Below the pieces are notes generated by a model. The model saw nothing but the letters and a program-made list of their open reading frames with translations. It did no database searches and was not told where the DNA came from. A stretch of 15,900 bases of DNA from IMG/VR virus record IMGVR_UViG_2695420863_000009, one strand, 5' to 3'. Positions 270-15,869 of this stretch are shown piece by piece. The stretch's first letter is position 1. Every line of letters starts with the position of its first letter. Origin of the DNA: a virus (Duplodnaviria > Heunggongvirae > Uroviricota > Caudoviricetes). Both the position numbers and the translations under genes were made by a program.

Positions 270-271
270 GT

Positions 272-299
272 CCATAAGAAAGCCCCTCCGGAGAGGGGC
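272..299 (-). terminator. putative terminator hairpin downstream of the tRNA cluster
   Basis: 7-bp stem gcccctc/gaggggc (282-299) with cgga loop; on the minus strand it is followed by tttctt. The T-run is weak. Confidence 0.3.
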
Positions 300-536
300 T
301 GGAGAGTGGCGCTATGTGCCATTGCATGGTGCCGGGTGCCTCCCGGTGAATTCAGTACCAGCACCTGAATCCGCGATTATCCCATATACCTACTCGCTGA
401 TTGCCCCTCCGCACAGGGGGATTCACCATGCCAGTTTCTTTTAACAAACTCCCCGCAAACCAGACAACAGTCAACCGCCTGAATTGTGAGACATTTAAAA
501 AAAAGGCCCGCAAAAGCGAGCCAGGGAAAATAAGTG

Positions 537-613
537 TGGCGCGTTGTACTGGATTCGAACCAGTGACCGATTGCTTAGAAGGCAATTGCTCTGTCCGGCT
601 GAGCTAACAACGC
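537..613 (-). tRNA. tRNA-Arg (anticodon TCT)
   Basis: Reverse complement folds as a canonical cloverleaf: perfect 7-bp acceptor stem GCGTTGT/ACAACGC, D-stem GCTC/GAGC, anticodon loop CTTCTAA, T-loop TTCGAAT, 3' CCA encoded. It resembles argO of Stx-type lambdoid phages (recollection). Confidence 0.8.
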
Positions 614-626
614 AGGATACAGATAA

Positions 627-703
627 TGGACCGCCTTCGGGGACCCGAACTCCGCGCAACCAGCTTCGAAAGCTGGCGCTCTTTCCTGATGAGCTAATGG
701 CGG
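627..703 (-). tRNA. putative tRNA-Arg (anticodon TCG), possibly degenerate
   Basis: Cloverleaf-like: D-stem GCTC/GAGC, anticodon arm CCAGC-TTTCGAA-GCTGG, CCA encoded. The acceptor stem (A-A at 6-67) and T-stem (A-C) each carry one mismatch, and the T-loop TTCGGGT is atypical. It sits in the position argN holds in Stx-type phages. Confidence 0.5.
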
Positions 704-710
704 TATGTGA

Positions 711-786
711 TGGTGGCCCTTGCTGGATTTGAACCAGCGACCTGGCGATTATGAGTCGCTCGCTCTCACCACTGAGCTAAAGGGCC
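711..786 (-). tRNA. tRNA-Ile2 (lysidine type) or tRNA-Met, anticodon CAT
   Basis: Cloverleaf with acceptor GGCCCTT/AAGGGCC, anticodon loop CTCATAA, T-loop TTCAAAT, CCA encoded. It closely resembles E. coli ileX / phage ileZ as I recall them. Confidence 0.8.
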
Positions 787-3864: not shown

Positions 3865-4914
3865 TTACCCGAGCACGCCGGTTGCAAAAGCGTGATCAAG
3901 AAAACGAAAAATTAAATCAACCTGGGAACCATGCTTTTCTTCGAACGCCAGCGGATCCGCATGAAGCTCGTTGTGATGCTCCCGACACAGCGGTAGCGTG
4001 AAAATATCGTGGGATTTTGTTCCCATTCCACCCTGACCATGACCAATCAGATGATGAGGATCGTCCGCTGGCTTACCACAACACGCACACGGCTGTGTCT
4101 TTACCCAGCGTGTGTATTTCTCATTTACCCAGAGGCGACGTTTAGGTCGTTTCATGAAGGATTCCGGAGACTCCGGATCAACGGCAATGCTGACCACCGT
4201 CTTTTCCTGTGGTGGGTTCTGTTGCTGGTGGGTGTGAGGCGGTAGCGCAATATTTTTTGTGCGCTGCTTCAGTATGCTGGTGGCGGTCTGTTCTCCCGGT
4301 ATGATGTCGCTTTCACGGTATACGGAGCGGATTTTTTCCGCCGGTAATCCCAGAGAACGACGCGATACTGCCTCAGGTAATGCGTCCACCACCTGATTGC
4401 AGACTGCCCACCAGGATAATTCAGCCAGCGATAATTCCCGTTCCTGTATGCCATTCATTGCGTGGCGGATGACGTCAATCATCCATGCTGACAGGTTTTG
4501 TTGAGCAAGTTGCTCAAGTGATTCGGATGTCTGGTCGCGCAGCTGGTTGTCGCAGTGCCAGCACAACACCATCGCGCCGGTACCGTAACGATGTATGACA
4601 GTTTCGCTGTGATGATAATCACCATGAGGCCACTGGCAGGATTTAACGTGACGTAATAACCAGTCAGACAGTGCACCAGCGCCACCAGCAGCACGAATCA
4701 CACGCTCATTGCTGAAAAATGGCAGTAATGATTTATCTTCCGCCAGCGGCTGGCGAACGGCAGGAACGACCCCGGACGGCAGATTACGCATGCTTTTCGG
4801 TTCAGACTCCACCAGCACCCTGCCGCCATGAAATACCCGCATGGATTCACGGCCTGGCTTAACGATAACCAGACCGAGTTCCGGTACCAGAACAGGTCGA
4901 AGTAATACCCGCAC
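3865..4914 (-). CDS. DUF968-family phage protein with C-terminal HNH-like zinc-binding motif
   Basis: 349-aa ORF with GTG start preceded by ggagg. The C-terminus carries CACCG…HHLIGHG…CREHHNELH (HNH-like), typical of the YdfU/DUF968 proteins found between the replication genes and Q. Confidence 0.7.
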   Translation of the reverse strand: MRVLLRPVLVPELGLVIVKPGRESMRVFHGGRVLVESEPKSMRNLPSGVVPAVRQPLAEDKSLLPFFSNERVIRAAGGAGALSDWLLRHVKSCQWPHGDYHHSETVIHRYGTGAMVLCWHCDNQLRDQTSESLEQLAQQNLSAWMIDVIRHAMNGIQERELSLAELSWWAVCNQVVDALPEAVSRRSLGLPAEKIRSVYRESDIIPGEQTATSILKQRTKNIALPPHTHQQQNPPQEKTVVSIAVDPESPESFMKRPKRRLWVNEKYTRWVKTQPCACCGKPADDPHHLIGHGQGGMGTKSHDIFTLPLCREHHNELHADPLAFEEKHGSQVDLIFRFLDHAFATGVLG

Positions 4915-5194: not shown

Positions 5195-5264
5195 CGGTTG
5201 TCTCTGCTGGCGCAGCAGGTGCCAGTTGTTCAGGCTGGCGTGCGAATTGTAAACCAGAATGCCA

Positions 5265-5292
5265 GGAAAAAACAAAACCCGCCGAAGCGGGT
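5265..5292 (-). terminator. rho-independent terminator of the hok cassette
   Basis: Minus-strand stem aacccgc/gcgggtt with ttcg loop, followed by ttttgtttttt. Confidence 0.55.
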
Positions 5293-5361
5293 TAAGTGCG
5301 GGTGCGTTGAGGATGCCTGATTCATCAGAGGTGGCGAGGGATTTCTCCCCCGCCGGGTCTC

Positions 5362-5517
5362 TTACTCCTCAGGTTCGTAAGCTGTGAAGACAGCGACCTC
5401 CGTCTGGCCGGTTCGGACTCGTACCTCGCAGAGGTCTTTCCTCGTTACCAGTGCCGTCACTATGACGGTTAAACAGATGACGATCAGGGCGATTAACATC
5501 GCCTTTTGCTGCTTCAT
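5362..5517 (-). CDS. hokD: Hok/Gef-family type I toxin (small membrane peptide)
   Basis: 51-aa product MKQQKAMLIALIVICLTVIVTALVTRKDLCEVRVRTGQTEVAVFTAYEPEE, which is near-identical to my recollection of RelF/HokD. SD aaggag precedes the ATG at 5517. The track ORF extends 19 codons further upstream in frame. Confidence 0.85.
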   Translation of the reverse strand: MKQQKAMLIALIVICLTVIVTALVTRKDLCEVRVRTGQTEVAVFTAYEPEE

Positions 5518-5732
5518 AGCCTGCTTCTCCTTGCCTTTCGGCACGTAAGAGGCTAACCTACGTTTGTGAAGCATAGATTGGGCCTCAGATTAATGTTAAG
5601 CGTCTTGCAGGACGCGTAATGTTAACTGGGGCTTTTCTCTGTCTGCCTTACGGTGGCATGCCCGAGGCAGACAGCCTCAAGCACCCGCAGCAATTCTACT
5701 TAACTCTCGCTTTACCGCAAACCGTTTTTACC

Positions 5733-5754
5733 CGATATGGGAATTCCCATATCG
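5733..5754. promoter_or_regulatory. perfect 22-bp palindrome (candidate protein-binding site)
   Basis: cgatatgggaa|ttcccatatcg is exactly self-complementary and has no flanking T-run on either strand. It lies about 215 nt upstream of the hok ATG. Confidence 0.35.
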
Positions 5755-5762
5755 TAATGAAT

Positions 5763-5867
5763 TCAGTTCCCTAGTCGATCCATCAAAAACACAACCAGGC
5801 AGTAAACGCCCACAACAGCAACAACAGCCAGCGCACCTTCCATTGCCAGTGATATATCATCCGACAT
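5763..5867 (-). CDS. putative 34-aa hydrophobic micro-protein
   Basis: ATG preceded by a strong SD (aaggaggg, 4 nt). Product MSDDISLAMEGALAVVAVVGVYCLVVFLMDRLGN has one predicted TM helix. Below the track's 60-aa cut-off. Confidence 0.35.
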   Translation of the reverse strand: MSDDISLAMEGALAVVAVVGVYCLVVFLMDRLGN

Positions 5868-5908: not shown

Positions 5909-5986
5909 TCACCGACAAATAACATATACTAAAAAAGCGATAGCCATAGCAACGCCTGTAATTGCAAATGCTTCAGGCCAGTTCAT
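5909..5986 (-). CDS. putative 25-aa hydrophobic micro-protein
   Basis: ATG overlaps the stop of the upstream DUF551 gene (ATGA) and is preceded by aggagg. Product MNWPEAFAITGVAMAIAFLVYVICR. Confidence 0.3.
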   Translation of the reverse strand: MNWPEAFAITGVAMAIAFLVYVICR

Positions 5987-6852
5987 TGGCGCACCTCCTG
6001 CGGCGGTTCTGGTAGAGGCATCCAGTGTGATGGTATCCACGACGCACCAGGTATTATCCACCCATCATTAGCGTCAGGATGCCCCGGGATGTAAGTCGCC
6101 CATTTCATTCGCCAGTCACCTTTCCTGCCAAAATCCCTGGCAACAAGAACGGCTGTTTTGGTATCCGGCATTCGCTCACTACAGCTTATCCAACTATCCG
6201 GAGTTACCGGATAGTTGCCCGATAGTGCATTCTGCTCCAGTGATGCTTTTACAAACCACGCTGCCTGAACTATAACGCCATGAATCCAGCGCAAATCAGC
6301 ATCGCGATCTTTCTTTTTCATCTTTTCGCCACTTAAGGCCTTGCTTATGTGGCTGCGTGCCAGGTCTTCATGTAATTCCTTCGCCTCCTCAATGGTGAAA
6401 CCACCAGGCAGAAGAGCCGGAGTTACCGGAGAGCTGGTTGACGCTTCCGGGATTTTCCGAAAATTATTGGTTGACGAATCTTTATTTTCCCGAAAGTTTC
6501 CGGACTGAAACATGGCTTCGCGGCAATCGTTCCAGCCTGTAGCGTATGCAGCCGCTTTGCTGCTGCCTTCAACTGGCGCATCCTGCCAATACATTTCTTC
6601 CGGCACTATCGGCGCTGGAGGGGCGGCAAATAGATATCCGCCAAAGTCAGGAAGCTCTCTAATGGCCTGTACAAATTTTTGTTTGCCTACGTCAACCCCT
6701 AATGGGTAATGAGCTATAATCTTTGCCACCGGCTCTGCTTCCAGCGATGCCAGCGCAATCCGTGCCAGTTCCATTTGTTCACCACGGGTAAGCCCGTTTT
6801 CAAGCGGATTTTTAATGAACAATTCAATACGTTCTTTGGTAATAGTGGTCAT
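5983..6852 (-). CDS. DUF551 domain-containing phage protein
   Basis: 289 aa with SD aaggag before the ATG. The C-terminal ~70 aa (…PDSWISCSERMPDT…GWIIPGASWIPSHWMPLPEPP) match the DUF551 pattern as I recall it. Confidence 0.6.
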   Translation of the reverse strand: MTTITKERIELFIKNPLENGLTRGEQMELARIALASLEAEPVAKIIAHYPLGVDVGKQKFVQAIRELPDFGGYLFAAPPAPIVPEEMYWQDAPVEGSSKAAAYATGWNDCREAMFQSGNFRENKDSSTNNFRKIPEASTSSPVTPALLPGGFTIEEAKELHEDLARSHISKALSGEKMKKKDRDADLRWIHGVIVQAAWFVKASLEQNALSGNYPVTPDSWISCSERMPDTKTAVLVARDFGRKGDWRMKWATYIPGHPDANDGWIIPGASWIPSHWMPLPEPPQEVRQ

Positions 6853-14488: not shown

Positions 14489-15019
14489 GGTCAGGTGGAG
14501 TGCGTGCGCCGGACACGGGTGAGCATCCGGCACTGACAGTTTACTGAAAGGATATGTCCCTGAAAAGTCAGGGCATAACGCGAAAGCGCACGGCGAAATT
14601 GGTCTCTCTGTACGGTGTCGTTAAATTTAGTTCGACCGTGCGCTTCCGGTTGTGGCACTCCGCGAAATGGCGCGGCGGTAAGTATGGCTGGGGTTTCCTC
14701 CATTGCTCCAGAAAATGCACCGGGTTGTCAGGTTGACCATACGCTTAAGTGACAACCCCGCTACAACGCCCTCTGTTATCAATTTTCTGGTGACATTTGG
14801 CGGTATCAGTTTTACTCCGTGACTGCTCTGCCGCCCTTTTTAAAGTGAATTTTGTGATGCGGTGAATGCGGCTATGCGCACGCGGAACAGTTAAAGCAGT
14901 AAGGCGGTATTTTACGGGCGTAACGAGCATCAACTAACCCGGCGTTAATTGTTAACTGGTTAACGTCACCTGGAGGCACCAGGCACTGCATCACAAAATT
15001 CATTGTTGAGGACGCGATA
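14489..15019 (+). repeat. repeat copy 2: structured leader + dicF + dicB 5'-UTR
   Basis: Aligns with copy 1 across its length with scattered substitutions and a small insertion. Confidence 0.8.
14784..14836 (+). ncRNA. dicF: DicF-like sRNA, copy 2 (G-to-A variant)
   Basis: Same 53 nt as copy 1 except A at position 12 (GTGACATTTGG vs GTGACGTTTGG); followed by TTTTT. Confidence 0.75.
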
Positions 15020-15550: not shown

Positions 15551-15574
15551 NNNNNNNNNNNNNNNNNNNNNNNN
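15551..15574. other. assembly gap (24 N)
   Basis: Run of N; the sequence resumes inside the leader repeat. Confidence 0.95.
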
Positions 15575-15869
15575 GACACCGGGTTGTCAGGTTGACCATA
15601 CGCTTAAGTGACAACCCCGCTGCAACGCCCTCTGTTATCAATTTTCTGGTGACGTTTGGCGGTATCAGTTTTACTCCGTGACTGCTCTGCCGCCCTTTTT
15701 AAAGTGAATTTTGTGATGCGGTGAATGCGGCTGAGCGCACGCGGAACAGTTAAAACCAAAAACAGTGTTATGGGGGGATTCTCTGTATCCGGCGTTAATT
15801 GTTAACTGGTTAACGTCACCTGGAGGCACCAGGCACCGCATCACAAAATTCATTGTTGAGGACGCGATA
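15575..15869 (+). repeat. repeat copy 3 (partial leader + dicF + dicB 5'-UTR)
   Basis: Identical to copy 1 over the shared region 12785-13032, then continues into a dicB start. Confidence 0.8.
15643..15695 (+). ncRNA. dicF: DicF-like sRNA, copy 3
   Basis: Identical to copy 1; followed by TTTTT. Confidence 0.75.

What the first reader, a model, noticed from the sequence alone, without database searches (positions are those of the whole stretch)
5265..5754. Hok-family type I toxin cassette in the nin region, with no located Sok antisense and a perfect 22-bp palindrome upstream
The 51-aa Hok/Gef toxin has an SD and its own terminator. The extended leader contains long-range pairing (ctgtctgcc…ggcagacag, 5639-5673), which is typical of hok mRNAs. 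Hok loci normally need an overlapping mok frame and a Sok antisense RNA; I could not confidently locate a Sok promoter on the plus strand, and unlike the relBE-hokD arrangement I recall from Qin there is no relBE upstream. The exact 22-bp palindrome at 5733-5754 (containing GAATTC) is not a terminator and may be a regulator-binding site.
Basis: partly seen in the sequence, partly recalled or inferred. Interest (0 to 1): 0.45.

Follow-up and report, generated by a model that had tools for sequence, protein, structure and literature searches.

The report
Ordinary hok/sok plus orphan KilA-N palindrome
The toxin cassette is a complete, ordinary hok/sok toxin-antitoxin locus with its antisense RNA in the usual place, and the 22-bp palindrome beside it is not part of that locus but a leftover piece of a neighbouring phage-defence-type (KilA-N/BstA-like) gene, from the spot where such genes across many bacterial phyla carry a conserved palindrome.

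Summary
The Hok ORF, its SD, its terminator and the perfect 22-bp palindrome are all real. The claim that Sok and mok are missing is not. An in-frame mok ORF starts at 5574(-). The annotated 5' ends of K-12 sokC and sokB both map to 5566(+). The Sok promoter (-35 TTGCCT 5531-5536, -10 TAACCT 5554-5559) lies in a stretch identical to hokW-sokW of Sakai prophage Sp5, where that -10 was mutated experimentally. tac and fbi pair in the minimum-energy fold. The cassette occurs in 4738 of 5426 complete E. coli genomes, so it is already known.

The palindrome lies outside the conserved cassette. It is absent from Sp5, hokC, hokB and R1, and its segment occurs in only 667 genomes. It is identical to a stretch inside a KilA-N + BstA-C-domain gene that sits next to hok in phage vB_EcoS-673R7. 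The window keeps an 11-codon relic, DMGIPIS**IQ.

In KilA-N genes from many phyla this 22-nt box is held palindromic at the nucleotide level. Codons are fixed, it is read in two reading frames, and 9 of 11 pairs show compensatory changes. I found no description of this. Whether the orphan copy still works, for example as an aba-like decoy, is untested.

The parts
5693..5720 (-). hok/mok mRNA promoter: -35 TTGCGG (5715-5720), 16-nt spacer, -10 TAGAAT (5693-5698); inferred +1 at about 5686
   Evidence: Read directly from the sequence. The region is conserved with Sp5 hokW and similar in hokC and hokB. The Rfam sok/hok-leader model starts at 5686. The transcription start site is inferred, not mapped.
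5675..5686 (-). tac (translational activator) element at the 5' end of the hok mRNA, GGGUGCUUGAGG
   Evidence: It pairs with 5297-5312 in the minimum-energy fold of the 417-nt mRNA (-180.3 kcal/mol, z = -7.4). An exact 9-nt inverted repeat joins 5297-5305 and 5681-5689 (I5).
5512..5686 (-). hok mRNA leader: 5' hairpin, Sok target region, mok start and hok SD
   Evidence: Rfam RF01794 gives 117.5 bits against a gathering score of 59, E = 1e-26, over the full model 1-157.
5362..5574 (-). mok reading frame: ATG at 5572-5574, SD GAGG at 5583-5586; 70 aa, in frame with hok and ending at the same stop, as in K-12 mokC
   Evidence: Found in the ORF list. The mokC start maps to 5574 in alignment A1. 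The homologous ORF is annotated 'MokW protein' or orf74 in related phages.
5362..5517 (-). hok toxin gene, 51 aa; SD AAGGAG at 5527-5532
   Evidence: Pfam HOK_GEF at 1.5e-22. Annotated hokD in 100% identical genomes. From my recollection of the K-12 HokD sequence it differs at one residue (Val for Ile); one search shows the corresponding nucleotide difference, but no protein comparison was run.
5531..5559 (+). Sok promoter: -35 TTGCCT (5531-5536), 17-nt spacer, -10 TAACCT (5554-5559)
   Evidence: It lies in a stretch identical to Sp5 sokW. The sokW 'pro-less' primers YO-421/YO-422 replace exactly this -10 (PMC8621323). It has the same layout as the R1-type sok promoter TTGCGC-17-TATCCT.
5566..5642 (+). 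Sok antisense RNA, about 77 nt. Its 5' tail is complementary to the mok SD and AUG. A long hairpin (5580-5633) is followed by a U-rich tail.
   Evidence: The annotated 5' ends of K-12 sokC and sokB both map to 5566, and their 3' ends to 5642. The fold is -33.2 kcal/mol with z = -6.0. The ends are inferred by homology, not mapped.
5297..5312 (-). fbi (fold-back inhibition) element at the 3' end of the hok mRNA
   Evidence: It pairs with tac in the minimum-energy fold and in the inverted repeat I5.
5266..5293 (-). Rho-independent terminator of the hok mRNA
   Evidence: The stem AACCCGC-TTCG-GCGGGTT is followed by TTGTTTTTTC.
5733..5754 (.). Perfect 22-bp palindrome, an orphan 'KilA-N box'. It is intergenic: 9 nt past the stop of the 34-aa ORF and at -47 to -68 from the inferred hok transcription start.
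   Evidence: Confirmed. It is identical to L270 3674-3695 inside a KilA-N/BstA-C gene.
5734..5766 (+). 11-codon relic of a KilA-N/BstA-like gene. It reads DMGIPIS**IQ where the intact gene reads DMGIPISELIQ. It is oriented opposite to the nin genes, like the intact gene in phage 673R7.
   Evidence: tblastn gives 9/11, translation confirms it, and a 41-nt alignment gives 35/41.
5763..5867 (-). Upstream 34-aa hydrophobic ORF. It is a neighbour, not part of hok/sok, and it travels with the palindrome in the window-type copies.
   Evidence: Annotated as WP_001278454.1 in an identical genome. The 141-nt palindrome segment overlaps an annotated 'hypothetical protein' in every listed hit.

Best explanation
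Positions 5266-5720 hold a complete, conventional hok/mok/sok type I toxin-antitoxin locus. It is the intact form of what PGAP calls hokD, and a close relative of hokW-sokW of Sakai prophage Sp5.

How it most likely works. The hok mRNA starts at about 5686 on the minus strand. It is stable, and its 5' tac element is locked to its 3' fbi element, so it is translationally silent. Sok is a roughly 77-nt unstable antisense RNA made from a constitutive promoter on the plus strand (+1 about 5566). It pairs with the mok SD and start codon. That blocks mok translation, and with it the coupled hok translation. In R1, Sok also marks the duplex for RNase III. When Sok synthesis stops, for example on loss of the element or on prophage induction, the 3'-processed hok mRNA refolds, is translated, and Hok depolarises the inner membrane. 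What is shown here is the presence and arrangement of the sequence elements. The mechanism is inferred from R1 hok/sok and from hokW-sokW.

The 22-bp palindrome is not part of this locus. It is an orphan fragment of a KilA-N + BstA-C-domain gene. In other lambdoid phages, such as vB_EcoS-673R7, that gene lies about 310 bp from the hok promoter and is transcribed divergently. A deletion of roughly 480 bp, with one endpoint at the edge of the palindrome, would give the junction seen in the window.

The retained fragment is the one spot of KilA-N genes that is kept as a dyad-symmetric 22-nt box at the nucleotide level across many phyla. The box is most plausibly a protein-recognition DNA site, perhaps for the gene's own product. 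Here it is most likely a junction relic with no role in hok control.
For: hok/sok:
- Pfam HOK_GEF at 1.5e-22.
- Rfam sok model at 117.5 bits against a gathering score of 59, over the full model length.
- The mokC start, the hokC start and stop, and the sokC and sokB ends all map cleanly onto the window.
- The Sok fold has z = -6.0.
- tac and fbi are paired in the minimum-energy fold, z = -7.4.
- About 92% identity to the hokW-sokW region of VT2-Sakai. That locus was shown to be a type I TA system, with its sok -10 mutated (PMC8621323).
- The cassette is in 4738 of 5426 complete E. coli genomes.

Palindrome outside the cassette:
- Homology with Sp5 ends 2 nt from it.
- Its segment is in 667 genomes only.

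Relic origin:
- In L270 a hok locus 89% identical to the window lies next to a KilA-N gene that contains the identical 22-mer. The gene is in the nin region and opposite in orientation to the nin genes.
- A 41-nt alignment gives 35/41, and the window reads DMGIPIS**IQ.
- The gene is KilA-N by Pfam (4e-27) plus the BstA C-terminal domain by PADLOC (3e-21).

Nucleotide-level constraint on the box:
- Codon entropy is about 0 at GAT/ATT/CCC/ATA, against 0.4-2.3 bits at all but one of the other conserved residues (F99, TTT, is the other fixed codon).
- The same 22-mer is read in another frame (RYGNSHIA) in Saprospiraceae KilA-N genes.
- In a sample found through a downstream protein motif only, 91.7% of cells are paired against 25-46% when partners are slid. 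9 of 11 pairs change on both sides. There are 65 compensatory cells against 20 in shuffles, with 0 of 500 shuffles reaching the observed value.
Against: - No transcript ends were mapped. The Sok and hok transcription starts are inferred by homology.
- The flanking similarity that supports the relic origin is short: 12 of 18 positions outside the palindrome.
- The orphan palindrome is exact in 117 of 119 related copies among 120 flank-anchored viral-contig matches, although the bases directly next to it vary. It also occurs as an orphan in many unrelated contexts, and in clusters with other box variants. Both points hint at retained function rather than a neutral relic.
- Conversely, two divergent E. 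coli copies carry a 1-nt deletion in the palindrome.
- Its position at -47 to -68 from the hok start would allow a bound protein to influence the hok promoter.
Confidence: 0.7

Rival explanations
1. The orphan palindrome is still functional as a DNA site recognised by KilA-N/BstA-like proteins. When carried on a replicating prophage genome, it would act like the anti-BstA (aba) element. It would titrate or signal 'self' to a KilA-N/BstA-type abortive-infection protein made by another prophage, giving this phage immunity without the gene.
For: - The box is under nucleotide-level constraint with covariation in KilA-N genes.
- The parent gene has the BstA C-terminal domain.
- BstA is suppressed by a DNA element located within its own locus, and each variant has a cognate element (PMC8585504).
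- Box variants differ in their half-sites, as cognate specificities would.
- Orphan boxes occur in many unrelated contexts, and as clusters of different variants: L140 has 4-5 boxes in about 200 bp, and L165, L176 and L060 also have clusters.
- The orphan segment is in 667 E. coli genomes and the gene in 137. Strain 95NR1 has both.
Against: - The mapped aba of BTP1 is a different sequence, 63 bp long with CCCGCC direct repeats, at the 5' end of the gene. BTP1 bstA has no such palindrome.
- No binding or defence activity is known for the 673R7-type protein.
- Two divergent orphan copies have a 1-nt deletion.
- The high prevalence may only reflect hitch-hiking in successful STEC prophages.
Confidence: 0.2
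2. The palindrome is an operator for a regulator of the hok promoter.
For: It is centred about 57 bp upstream of the inferred hok start, 12 bp from the -35. A perfect dyad is typical of dimeric regulators.
Against: - It is absent from the functional hokW-sokW, from hokC and hokB, and from R1.
- It is present in only a minority of copies.
- hok loci are regulated post-transcriptionally.
- The sequence is explained by the neighbouring KilA-N gene.
Confidence: 0.05
3. The palindrome acts at the RNA level. It would be a hairpin that ends, processes or stabilises read-through transcripts coming from the upstream nin genes, and so insulates hok.
For: It forms a 9-bp stem with a 4-nt loop, -14.5 kcal/mol, z = -4.1, on the minus-strand transcript. 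It lies 9 nt after the stop of the 34-aa ORF.
Against: - No U-tract follows on either strand (the next bases are GGUAAAAAC and UAAUGAAUUC), and the terminator scan does not call it.
- In KilA-N genes, symmetry is kept even at the central positions, which would be in the loop of a hairpin (GGA-ATT versus GGT-ATA). That favours a double-stranded dyad site.
Confidence: 0.05

Closest known systems
hokW-sokW of Sakai prophage 5 / VT2-Sakai (Takada et al. 2021, PMC8621323)
   Same: Both are hok/mok/sok loci in lambdoid prophages, with about 92% nucleotide identity over window 5290-5730. The Sok promoter and hok SD region are identical, Hok is 51 aa, and mok is in frame.
   Different: The Sok 5' tail and the mok start region differ at several positions. 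Because Sok is cis-encoded, complementarity is kept automatically. Sp5 has no palindrome upstream and has different flanking genes.
K-12 Qin hokD (relF) downstream of relBE
   Same: The Hok coding sequence is nearly identical, and the fbi and 3' region is the same. PGAP names the window gene hokD.
   Different: Homology with Qin starts only at the hok SD. The mok start, the Sok gene and promoter, tac and the hok promoter are replaced by the end of relE. The window holds the intact form and Qin a truncated one.
K-12 hokC/mokC/sokC (gef) and hokB/mokB/sokB; plasmid R1 hok/sok (parB)
   Same: All elements are in the same order: promoter, tac, 5' hairpin, Sok target, mok, hok, fbi, terminator. mok is in frame as in mokC. 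The Sok ends coincide in the alignment.
   Different: The Sok hairpin is 18 nt longer than in sokC. Hok is about 44% identical to R1 Hok; that figure is the one published for HokW in PMC8621323.
BstA / aba self-immunity system of prophage BTP1 (Owen et al. 2021, PMC8585504)
   Same: The parent gene of the palindrome shares the BstA C-terminal domain (32% over 142 aa). It is prophage-borne and carries a short conserved DNA element inside its own locus.
   Different: The BTP1 aba is 63 bp with direct CCCGCC repeats and lies at the gene start. The box here is a 22-bp dyad inside the KilA-N domain coding region. BTP1 bstA lacks it. No function has been shown for the box, and in the window the gene itself is absent.
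Phage lambda ori inside gene O (from general knowledge)
   Same: A dyad-symmetric protein-binding DNA element is embedded in the coding sequence of a phage DNA-binding protein.
   Different: This is only an analogy. No evidence here shows that the KilA-N box is an origin or is bound by its own product.

Membership tests
hok/sok type I toxin-antitoxin | Small Hok/Gef-family membrane toxin ORF | tested here: met
   Pfam PF01848 at 1.5e-22, residues 25-66 of the 70-aa ORF.
hok/sok type I toxin-antitoxin | Overlapping mok leader frame with its own SD upstream of hok | tested here: met
   ATG at 5574(-) and SD GAGG at 5583-5586; the frame is in frame with hok. The mokC start maps to 5574. Translational coupling itself cannot be tested here.
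hok/sok type I toxin-antitoxin | Cis-encoded Sok antisense RNA with its own promoter, complementary to the mok translation-initiation region | tested here: met
   The sokC and sokB ends map to 5566-5642(+). The promoter TTGCCT-17-TAACCT lies in a stretch identical to the experimentally mutated sokW promoter region. The RNA folds into a stable hairpin with a U-rich tail. Expression was not measured.
hok/sok type I toxin-antitoxin | Long-range tac-fbi pairing that closes the full-length mRNA | tested here: met
   An exact 9-nt inverted repeat lies 375 nt apart. The two elements are paired in the minimum-energy and centroid folds, z = -7.4.
hok/sok type I toxin-antitoxin | Conserved leader sequence and structure (Rfam RF01794) | tested here: met
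   117.5 bits against a gathering score of 59, E = 1e-26, model positions 1-157 of 157.
hok/sok type I toxin-antitoxin | Toxicity of Hok and neutralisation by Sok | not testable with these tools
   This was shown for the ~92%-identical hokW-sokW (PMC8621323).
relBE-hokD arrangement of Qin | relBE directly upstream, with hok lacking its own mok/sok/tac region | tested here: not met
   The window has the full regulatory region and no relBE. Homology with Qin starts at the hok SD.
Intrinsic terminator (for the palindrome) | G+C-rich hairpin followed by a U-tract | tested here: not met
   No T-run follows on either strand, and the terminator scan does not call it.
Conserved operator of hok loci (for the palindrome) | Present at the same position in homologous hok loci | tested here: not met
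   It is absent from Sp5, hokC, hokB and R1. Its segment is in 667 genomes against 4738 for the cassette.
BstA/aba self-immunity element | Short DNA element located within the locus of a BstA-family gene | tested here: inconclusive
   The box lies inside genes that have a BstA C-terminal domain. It also lies in KilA-N genes without that domain, such as the Nostoc and Saprospiraceae genes. In the window the gene is absent.
BstA/aba self-immunity element | Sequence or architecture like the mapped aba of BTP1 (63 bp with terminal CCCGCC direct repeats at the gene start) | tested here: not met
   The sequence, position and symmetry are all different. BTP1 bstA has no comparable palindrome.
BstA/aba self-immunity element | Suppresses the cognate defence protein when present on replicating DNA | not testable with these tools
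   This needs phage infection and induction assays.

The most novel reading that the evidence does not exclude
KilA-N/BstA-like genes from many bacterial phyla carry a 22-bp dyad-symmetric DNA site inside the coding sequence of their DNA-binding domain. Its half-sites diversify through compensatory changes, which drag the encoded residues along with them. The site would be the protein's own recognition or self-immunity site, an aba-like element. The palindrome at 5733-5754 would then be a stand-alone copy that this bstA-less prophage keeps as a decoy, to escape KilA-N/BstA-type abortive infection from co-resident prophages.
Probability: 0.2. Interest if true: 0.8.

Novelty: new variant of a known kind. 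Interest (0 to 1): 0.45.

Why it matters
The hok/sok part only confirms textbook biology. It also shows that this prophage carries the intact form of the truncated K-12 hokD.

The palindrome matters because of where it comes from. It is a palindrome embedded in coding sequence and kept symmetric by covariation at synonymous sites. It sits in a gene family linked to prophage abortive-infection defence.

How BstA recognises its DNA-based self-immunity element is an open question (PMC8585504, Discussion). This box gives a concrete candidate site that can be tested directly. Orphan copies such as the one here would be candidate anti-defence decoys.

Tried and rejected
- Fetching plasmid R1 by accession failed. 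I used an IncFII plasmid that encodes a Hok identical to my recalled R1 Hok query instead.
- The sigma-70 consensus scan did not find either the Sok or the hok promoter. Both were placed by homology.
- I considered the palindrome as a CRP-like or other class I activator site. It matches only 3 of 5 positions per half-site and is centred at about -57.5, so I dropped this.
- I considered that the exact 22-mer in 63 genomes of unrelated phyla (about 0.03 expected from my own 4^-22 estimate) was contamination or an adapter. I rejected this because it lies in frame in homologous genes whose flanks have diverged.
- I considered that its spread is explained only by coding for a conserved peptide. I rejected this on three grounds: fixed rare codons, a second reading frame, and covariation at synonymous positions.
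- I checked BTP1 bstA for an equivalent palindrome and found none.
- A PDB sequence search gave only marginal Mbp1/APSES hits, E about 0.3.
- A literature search for a KilA-N palindrome found nothing relevant. That library does not cover subscription journals.
- Template-switch 'quasipalindrome' mutation could help restore symmetry without selection. This cannot be excluded as a contributing mechanism, but it does not explain conservation across phyla against coding constraints.

Full report
**Setting.** The window is the nin region of a lambdoid prophage, read on the reverse strand. In the direction of transcription the genes are a DUF551 gene (5983-6852), a 34-aa ORF (5763-5867), hok, a DUF968 gene (3865-4914), then RusA and Q. 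Positions 5230-5800 are 100% identical to many STEC chromosomes, where the gene is annotated hokD.

**Checking the observation.**
- The 51-aa Hok ORF at 5362-5517(-) matches Pfam HOK_GEF at 1.5e-22.
- It has an AAGGAG SD.
- An intrinsic terminator follows it, with the stem at 5276-5293 and a T-run.
- The ctgtctgcc/ggcagacag pairing is real, but it is the local 5' hairpin of the leader.
- The long-range pairing typical of hok mRNAs joins 5297-5305 to 5681-5689.
- The palindrome CGATATGGGAATTCCCATATCG at 5733-5754 is exact. It is the only perfect palindrome of 22 bp or more in the window, with about 0.004 expected by chance.

**The locus is a conventional hok/sok.**
- Rfam's sok family, which models the leader strand, matches 5512-5686(-) over its whole length at 117.5 bits against a gathering score of 59.
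- A 70-aa ORF starting at ATG 5574(-) runs in frame into hok, exactly like K-12 mokC.
- In an alignment with Sp5 hokW, K-12 hokC, hokB and Qin hokD, several annotated features map without offset. The mokC start maps to 5574 and the hokC start to 5517. The 5' ends of both sokC and sokB map to 5566(+), and their 3' ends to 5642.
- Upstream of 5566 lie TTGCCT (5531-5536), a 17-nt spacer and TAACCT (5554-5559).
- The stretch GTAGGTTAGCCTCTTACGTGCCGAAAGGCAAGGAGAAG is identical in Sp5.
- In the hokW-sokW study, the 'promoter-less' sokW mutant was made with primers that replace exactly this -10. The locus was shown to be a type I TA system (PMC8621323).
- The predicted Sok has a 5' tail complementary to the mok SD and AUG, a long hairpin and a U-rich tail. 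It folds at -33.2 kcal/mol with z = -6.0.
- The 417-nt hok mRNA folds with its 5' GGGUGCUUGAGG paired to CCUCAACGCACCC near the 3' end (tac/fbi), z = -7.4.
- The consensus promoter scan misses the Sok promoter because its -10 has only 3 of 6 matches.

**Relation to Qin.** Qin hokD aligns only from the hok SD onward. Everything upstream is replaced by relE. The window therefore holds the intact form, and K-12 a truncated one.

**How common it is.** The cassette is in 4738 of 5426 complete E. coli genomes, with a median of 2 copies and up to 11. It is also in 79 phage records.

**The palindrome is outside the cassette.**
- Homology with Sp5 ends 2 nt from it.
- hokC, hokB and the R1-type locus lack it.
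- The 141-nt segment around it occurs in only 667 genomes.
- It is followed by GGUAAAAAC on the minus strand and UAAUGAAUUC on the plus strand, so it is not a terminator.

**Where the palindrome comes from.** An exact search found the 22-mer in at least 120 viral contigs and in 63 representative genomes. These include Nostocales, Saprospiraceae, Dehalococcoidia, Spirochaetia, Bacillota, and alpha-, beta- and gamma-proteobacteria. My own estimate of the chance expectation is about 0.03.

In 37 of the 63 genome loci and 16 viral loci, the 22-mer lies inside a KilA-N domain gene, where it encodes DMGIPIS. The E. coli version, in phage vB_EcoS-673R7, is a 257-aa protein. It has a KilA-N domain (Pfam 4e-27) and the C-terminal domain of the abortive-infection protein BstA (PADLOC 3e-21; 32% identity to BTP1 BstA over 142 aa).

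In that phage the gene lies in the nin region, opposite in orientation to the nin genes. It starts about 310 bp from the promoter of a hok locus that is 89% identical to the one in the window. The window matches the gene over 41 nt (35/41). On the plus strand it reads DMGIPIS**IQ where the gene reads DMGIPISELIQ. A deletion of about 480 bp ending at the edge of the palindrome would produce the hok-side junction seen here. I conclude that the palindrome is a relic of such a gene.

**The box is constrained at the DNA level.**
- In 36 distinct KilA-N coding segments from viral contigs, conserved residues use 2-7 codons each (entropy 0.4-2.3 bits). The box is the exception: GAT 34/34, ATT 35/36, CCC 36/36 and ATA 33/33. 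The only other fixed codon is TTT at F99.
- In Saprospiraceae homologs the identical 22-mer sits at the homologous place but is read in another frame (RYGNSHIA).
- In a metagenome sample retrieved through the downstream motif only (QGTWVHP / WLSPxF), the box is a perfect or near-perfect palindrome in nearly all genes, with many different sequences. Examples are CGAAACGGGAATTCCCGTTTCG, CGATATCGGAATTCCGATATCG, CGTGACGGGAATTCCCGTCACG, CGATGCCGGAATTCCGGCATCG and CGATATCGGTATACCGATATCG.
- On 49 distinct sequences, 91.7% of cells are paired against 25-46% when partners are slid. 9 of 11 pairs change on both sides. There are 65 compensatory cells against 20.4 ± 3.1 in shuffles, and 0 of 500 shuffles reach the observed value.
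- Synonymous third positions covary: GAT/ATA, GAA/GTT, GTG/GTC, ATG/CCC and ATC/CCG. Protein-level selection cannot explain this.
- Symmetry extends to the central bases (GGA-ATT versus GGT-ATA). This favours a double-stranded dyad site over a hairpin, though only weakly.
- Template-switch mutation at quasipalindromes may contribute to the symmetry.

**Link to BstA and aba.** BstA is suppressed by a DNA element (aba) within its own locus, and each variant has a cognate element (PMC8585504). The mapped aba of BTP1 is a different sequence at the gene start, and BTP1 bstA has no such palindrome. The box is therefore at most an analogue of aba. I found no paper that describes it.

**Is the orphan copy functional?**
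- Points for. It is exact in 117 of 119 related copies among 120 flank-anchored viral-contig matches, although the adjacent bases vary. Orphan boxes occur in many unrelated contexts, and in clusters of different variants: L140 has 4-5 in about 200 bp, and L165, L176 and L060 also have clusters. The orphan segment is in 667 genomes and the gene in 137. Strain 95NR1 has both.
- Points against. Two divergent copies have a 1-nt deletion. Nothing ties the palindrome to hok regulation.
- I rate a retained function, as a decoy or immunity site, at about 0.2.

**Verdict.** The hok/sok cassette is ordinary and already known. The palindrome is real but belongs to a different story. It is an orphan copy of a conserved, covarying palindromic box of KilA-N/BstA-like genes. 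That box appears to be undescribed and is worth an experiment.

Noticed in passing
L190-L269 and L313-L392 (KilA-N genes from viral and metagenome contigs); alignment A5: KilA-N domain genes carry a 22-nt dyad-symmetric box at fixed codons. It is kept palindromic by compensatory changes, including at synonymous third positions, and is read in two different frames in different lineages.
   Followed up: yes
L140 2528-2704 (Alcaligenaceae MAG); also L165 7879-7973, L176 4447-4496, L060 13856-13913: There are intergenic clusters of several different GGAATTCC-cored 22-24-bp palindromes about 30-40 bp apart. They include the window's palindrome and other KilA-N box variants. Their function is unknown.
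   Followed up: partly
window 12782-13032, 14716-14966, 15575-15825 (+); N runs at 13033-13043 and 15551-15574: Rfam finds three DicF matches (12851, 14785, 15644). The first and third lie in 251-nt copies that are 100% identical and abut runs of N, so part of this 'triplication' is probably a scaffolding or assembly artefact. The middle copy is 76% identical and looks like a genuine second dicF region.
   Followed up: partly
window 270-460 (-) and 540-786 (-): An STnc100 sRNA match (138 bits) lies next to three tRNA genes. These are annotated Ile, Arg and Arg in an identical genome. They are downstream of Q, at the place where Stx phages carry their tRNAs and stx.
   Followed up: no
L002 2050-2360 (K-12 Qin) compared with window 5290-5530: K-12 hokD is a 5'-truncated copy. 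Homology starts at the hok SD, and mok, Sok, tac and the promoter are replaced by the end of relE.
   Followed up: yes
window 5763-5867 (-) and 5909-6061 (-): Two small hydrophobic ORFs (34 aa and 50 aa) lie upstream of the palindrome. The 34-aa ORF has a strong SD and travels with the palindrome in the window-type copies. No family match was found for it.
   Followed up: no
NZ_CP021339.1 (E. coli 95NR1): 1122094-1122664 and 2238420-2239193: This strain has both the window-identical hok-plus-orphan-palindrome segment and an intact KilA-N/BstA-C gene with the same box, at different chromosomal sites. It is a natural test case for the decoy idea.
   Followed up: no
L311 and L312 (E. coli PV0838 and OkiPb01701), box region: The divergent orphan copies read CCG-TATGGGAATTCCCATATCG. 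A 1-nt deletion leaves only the inner 16-bp palindrome intact.
   Followed up: partly
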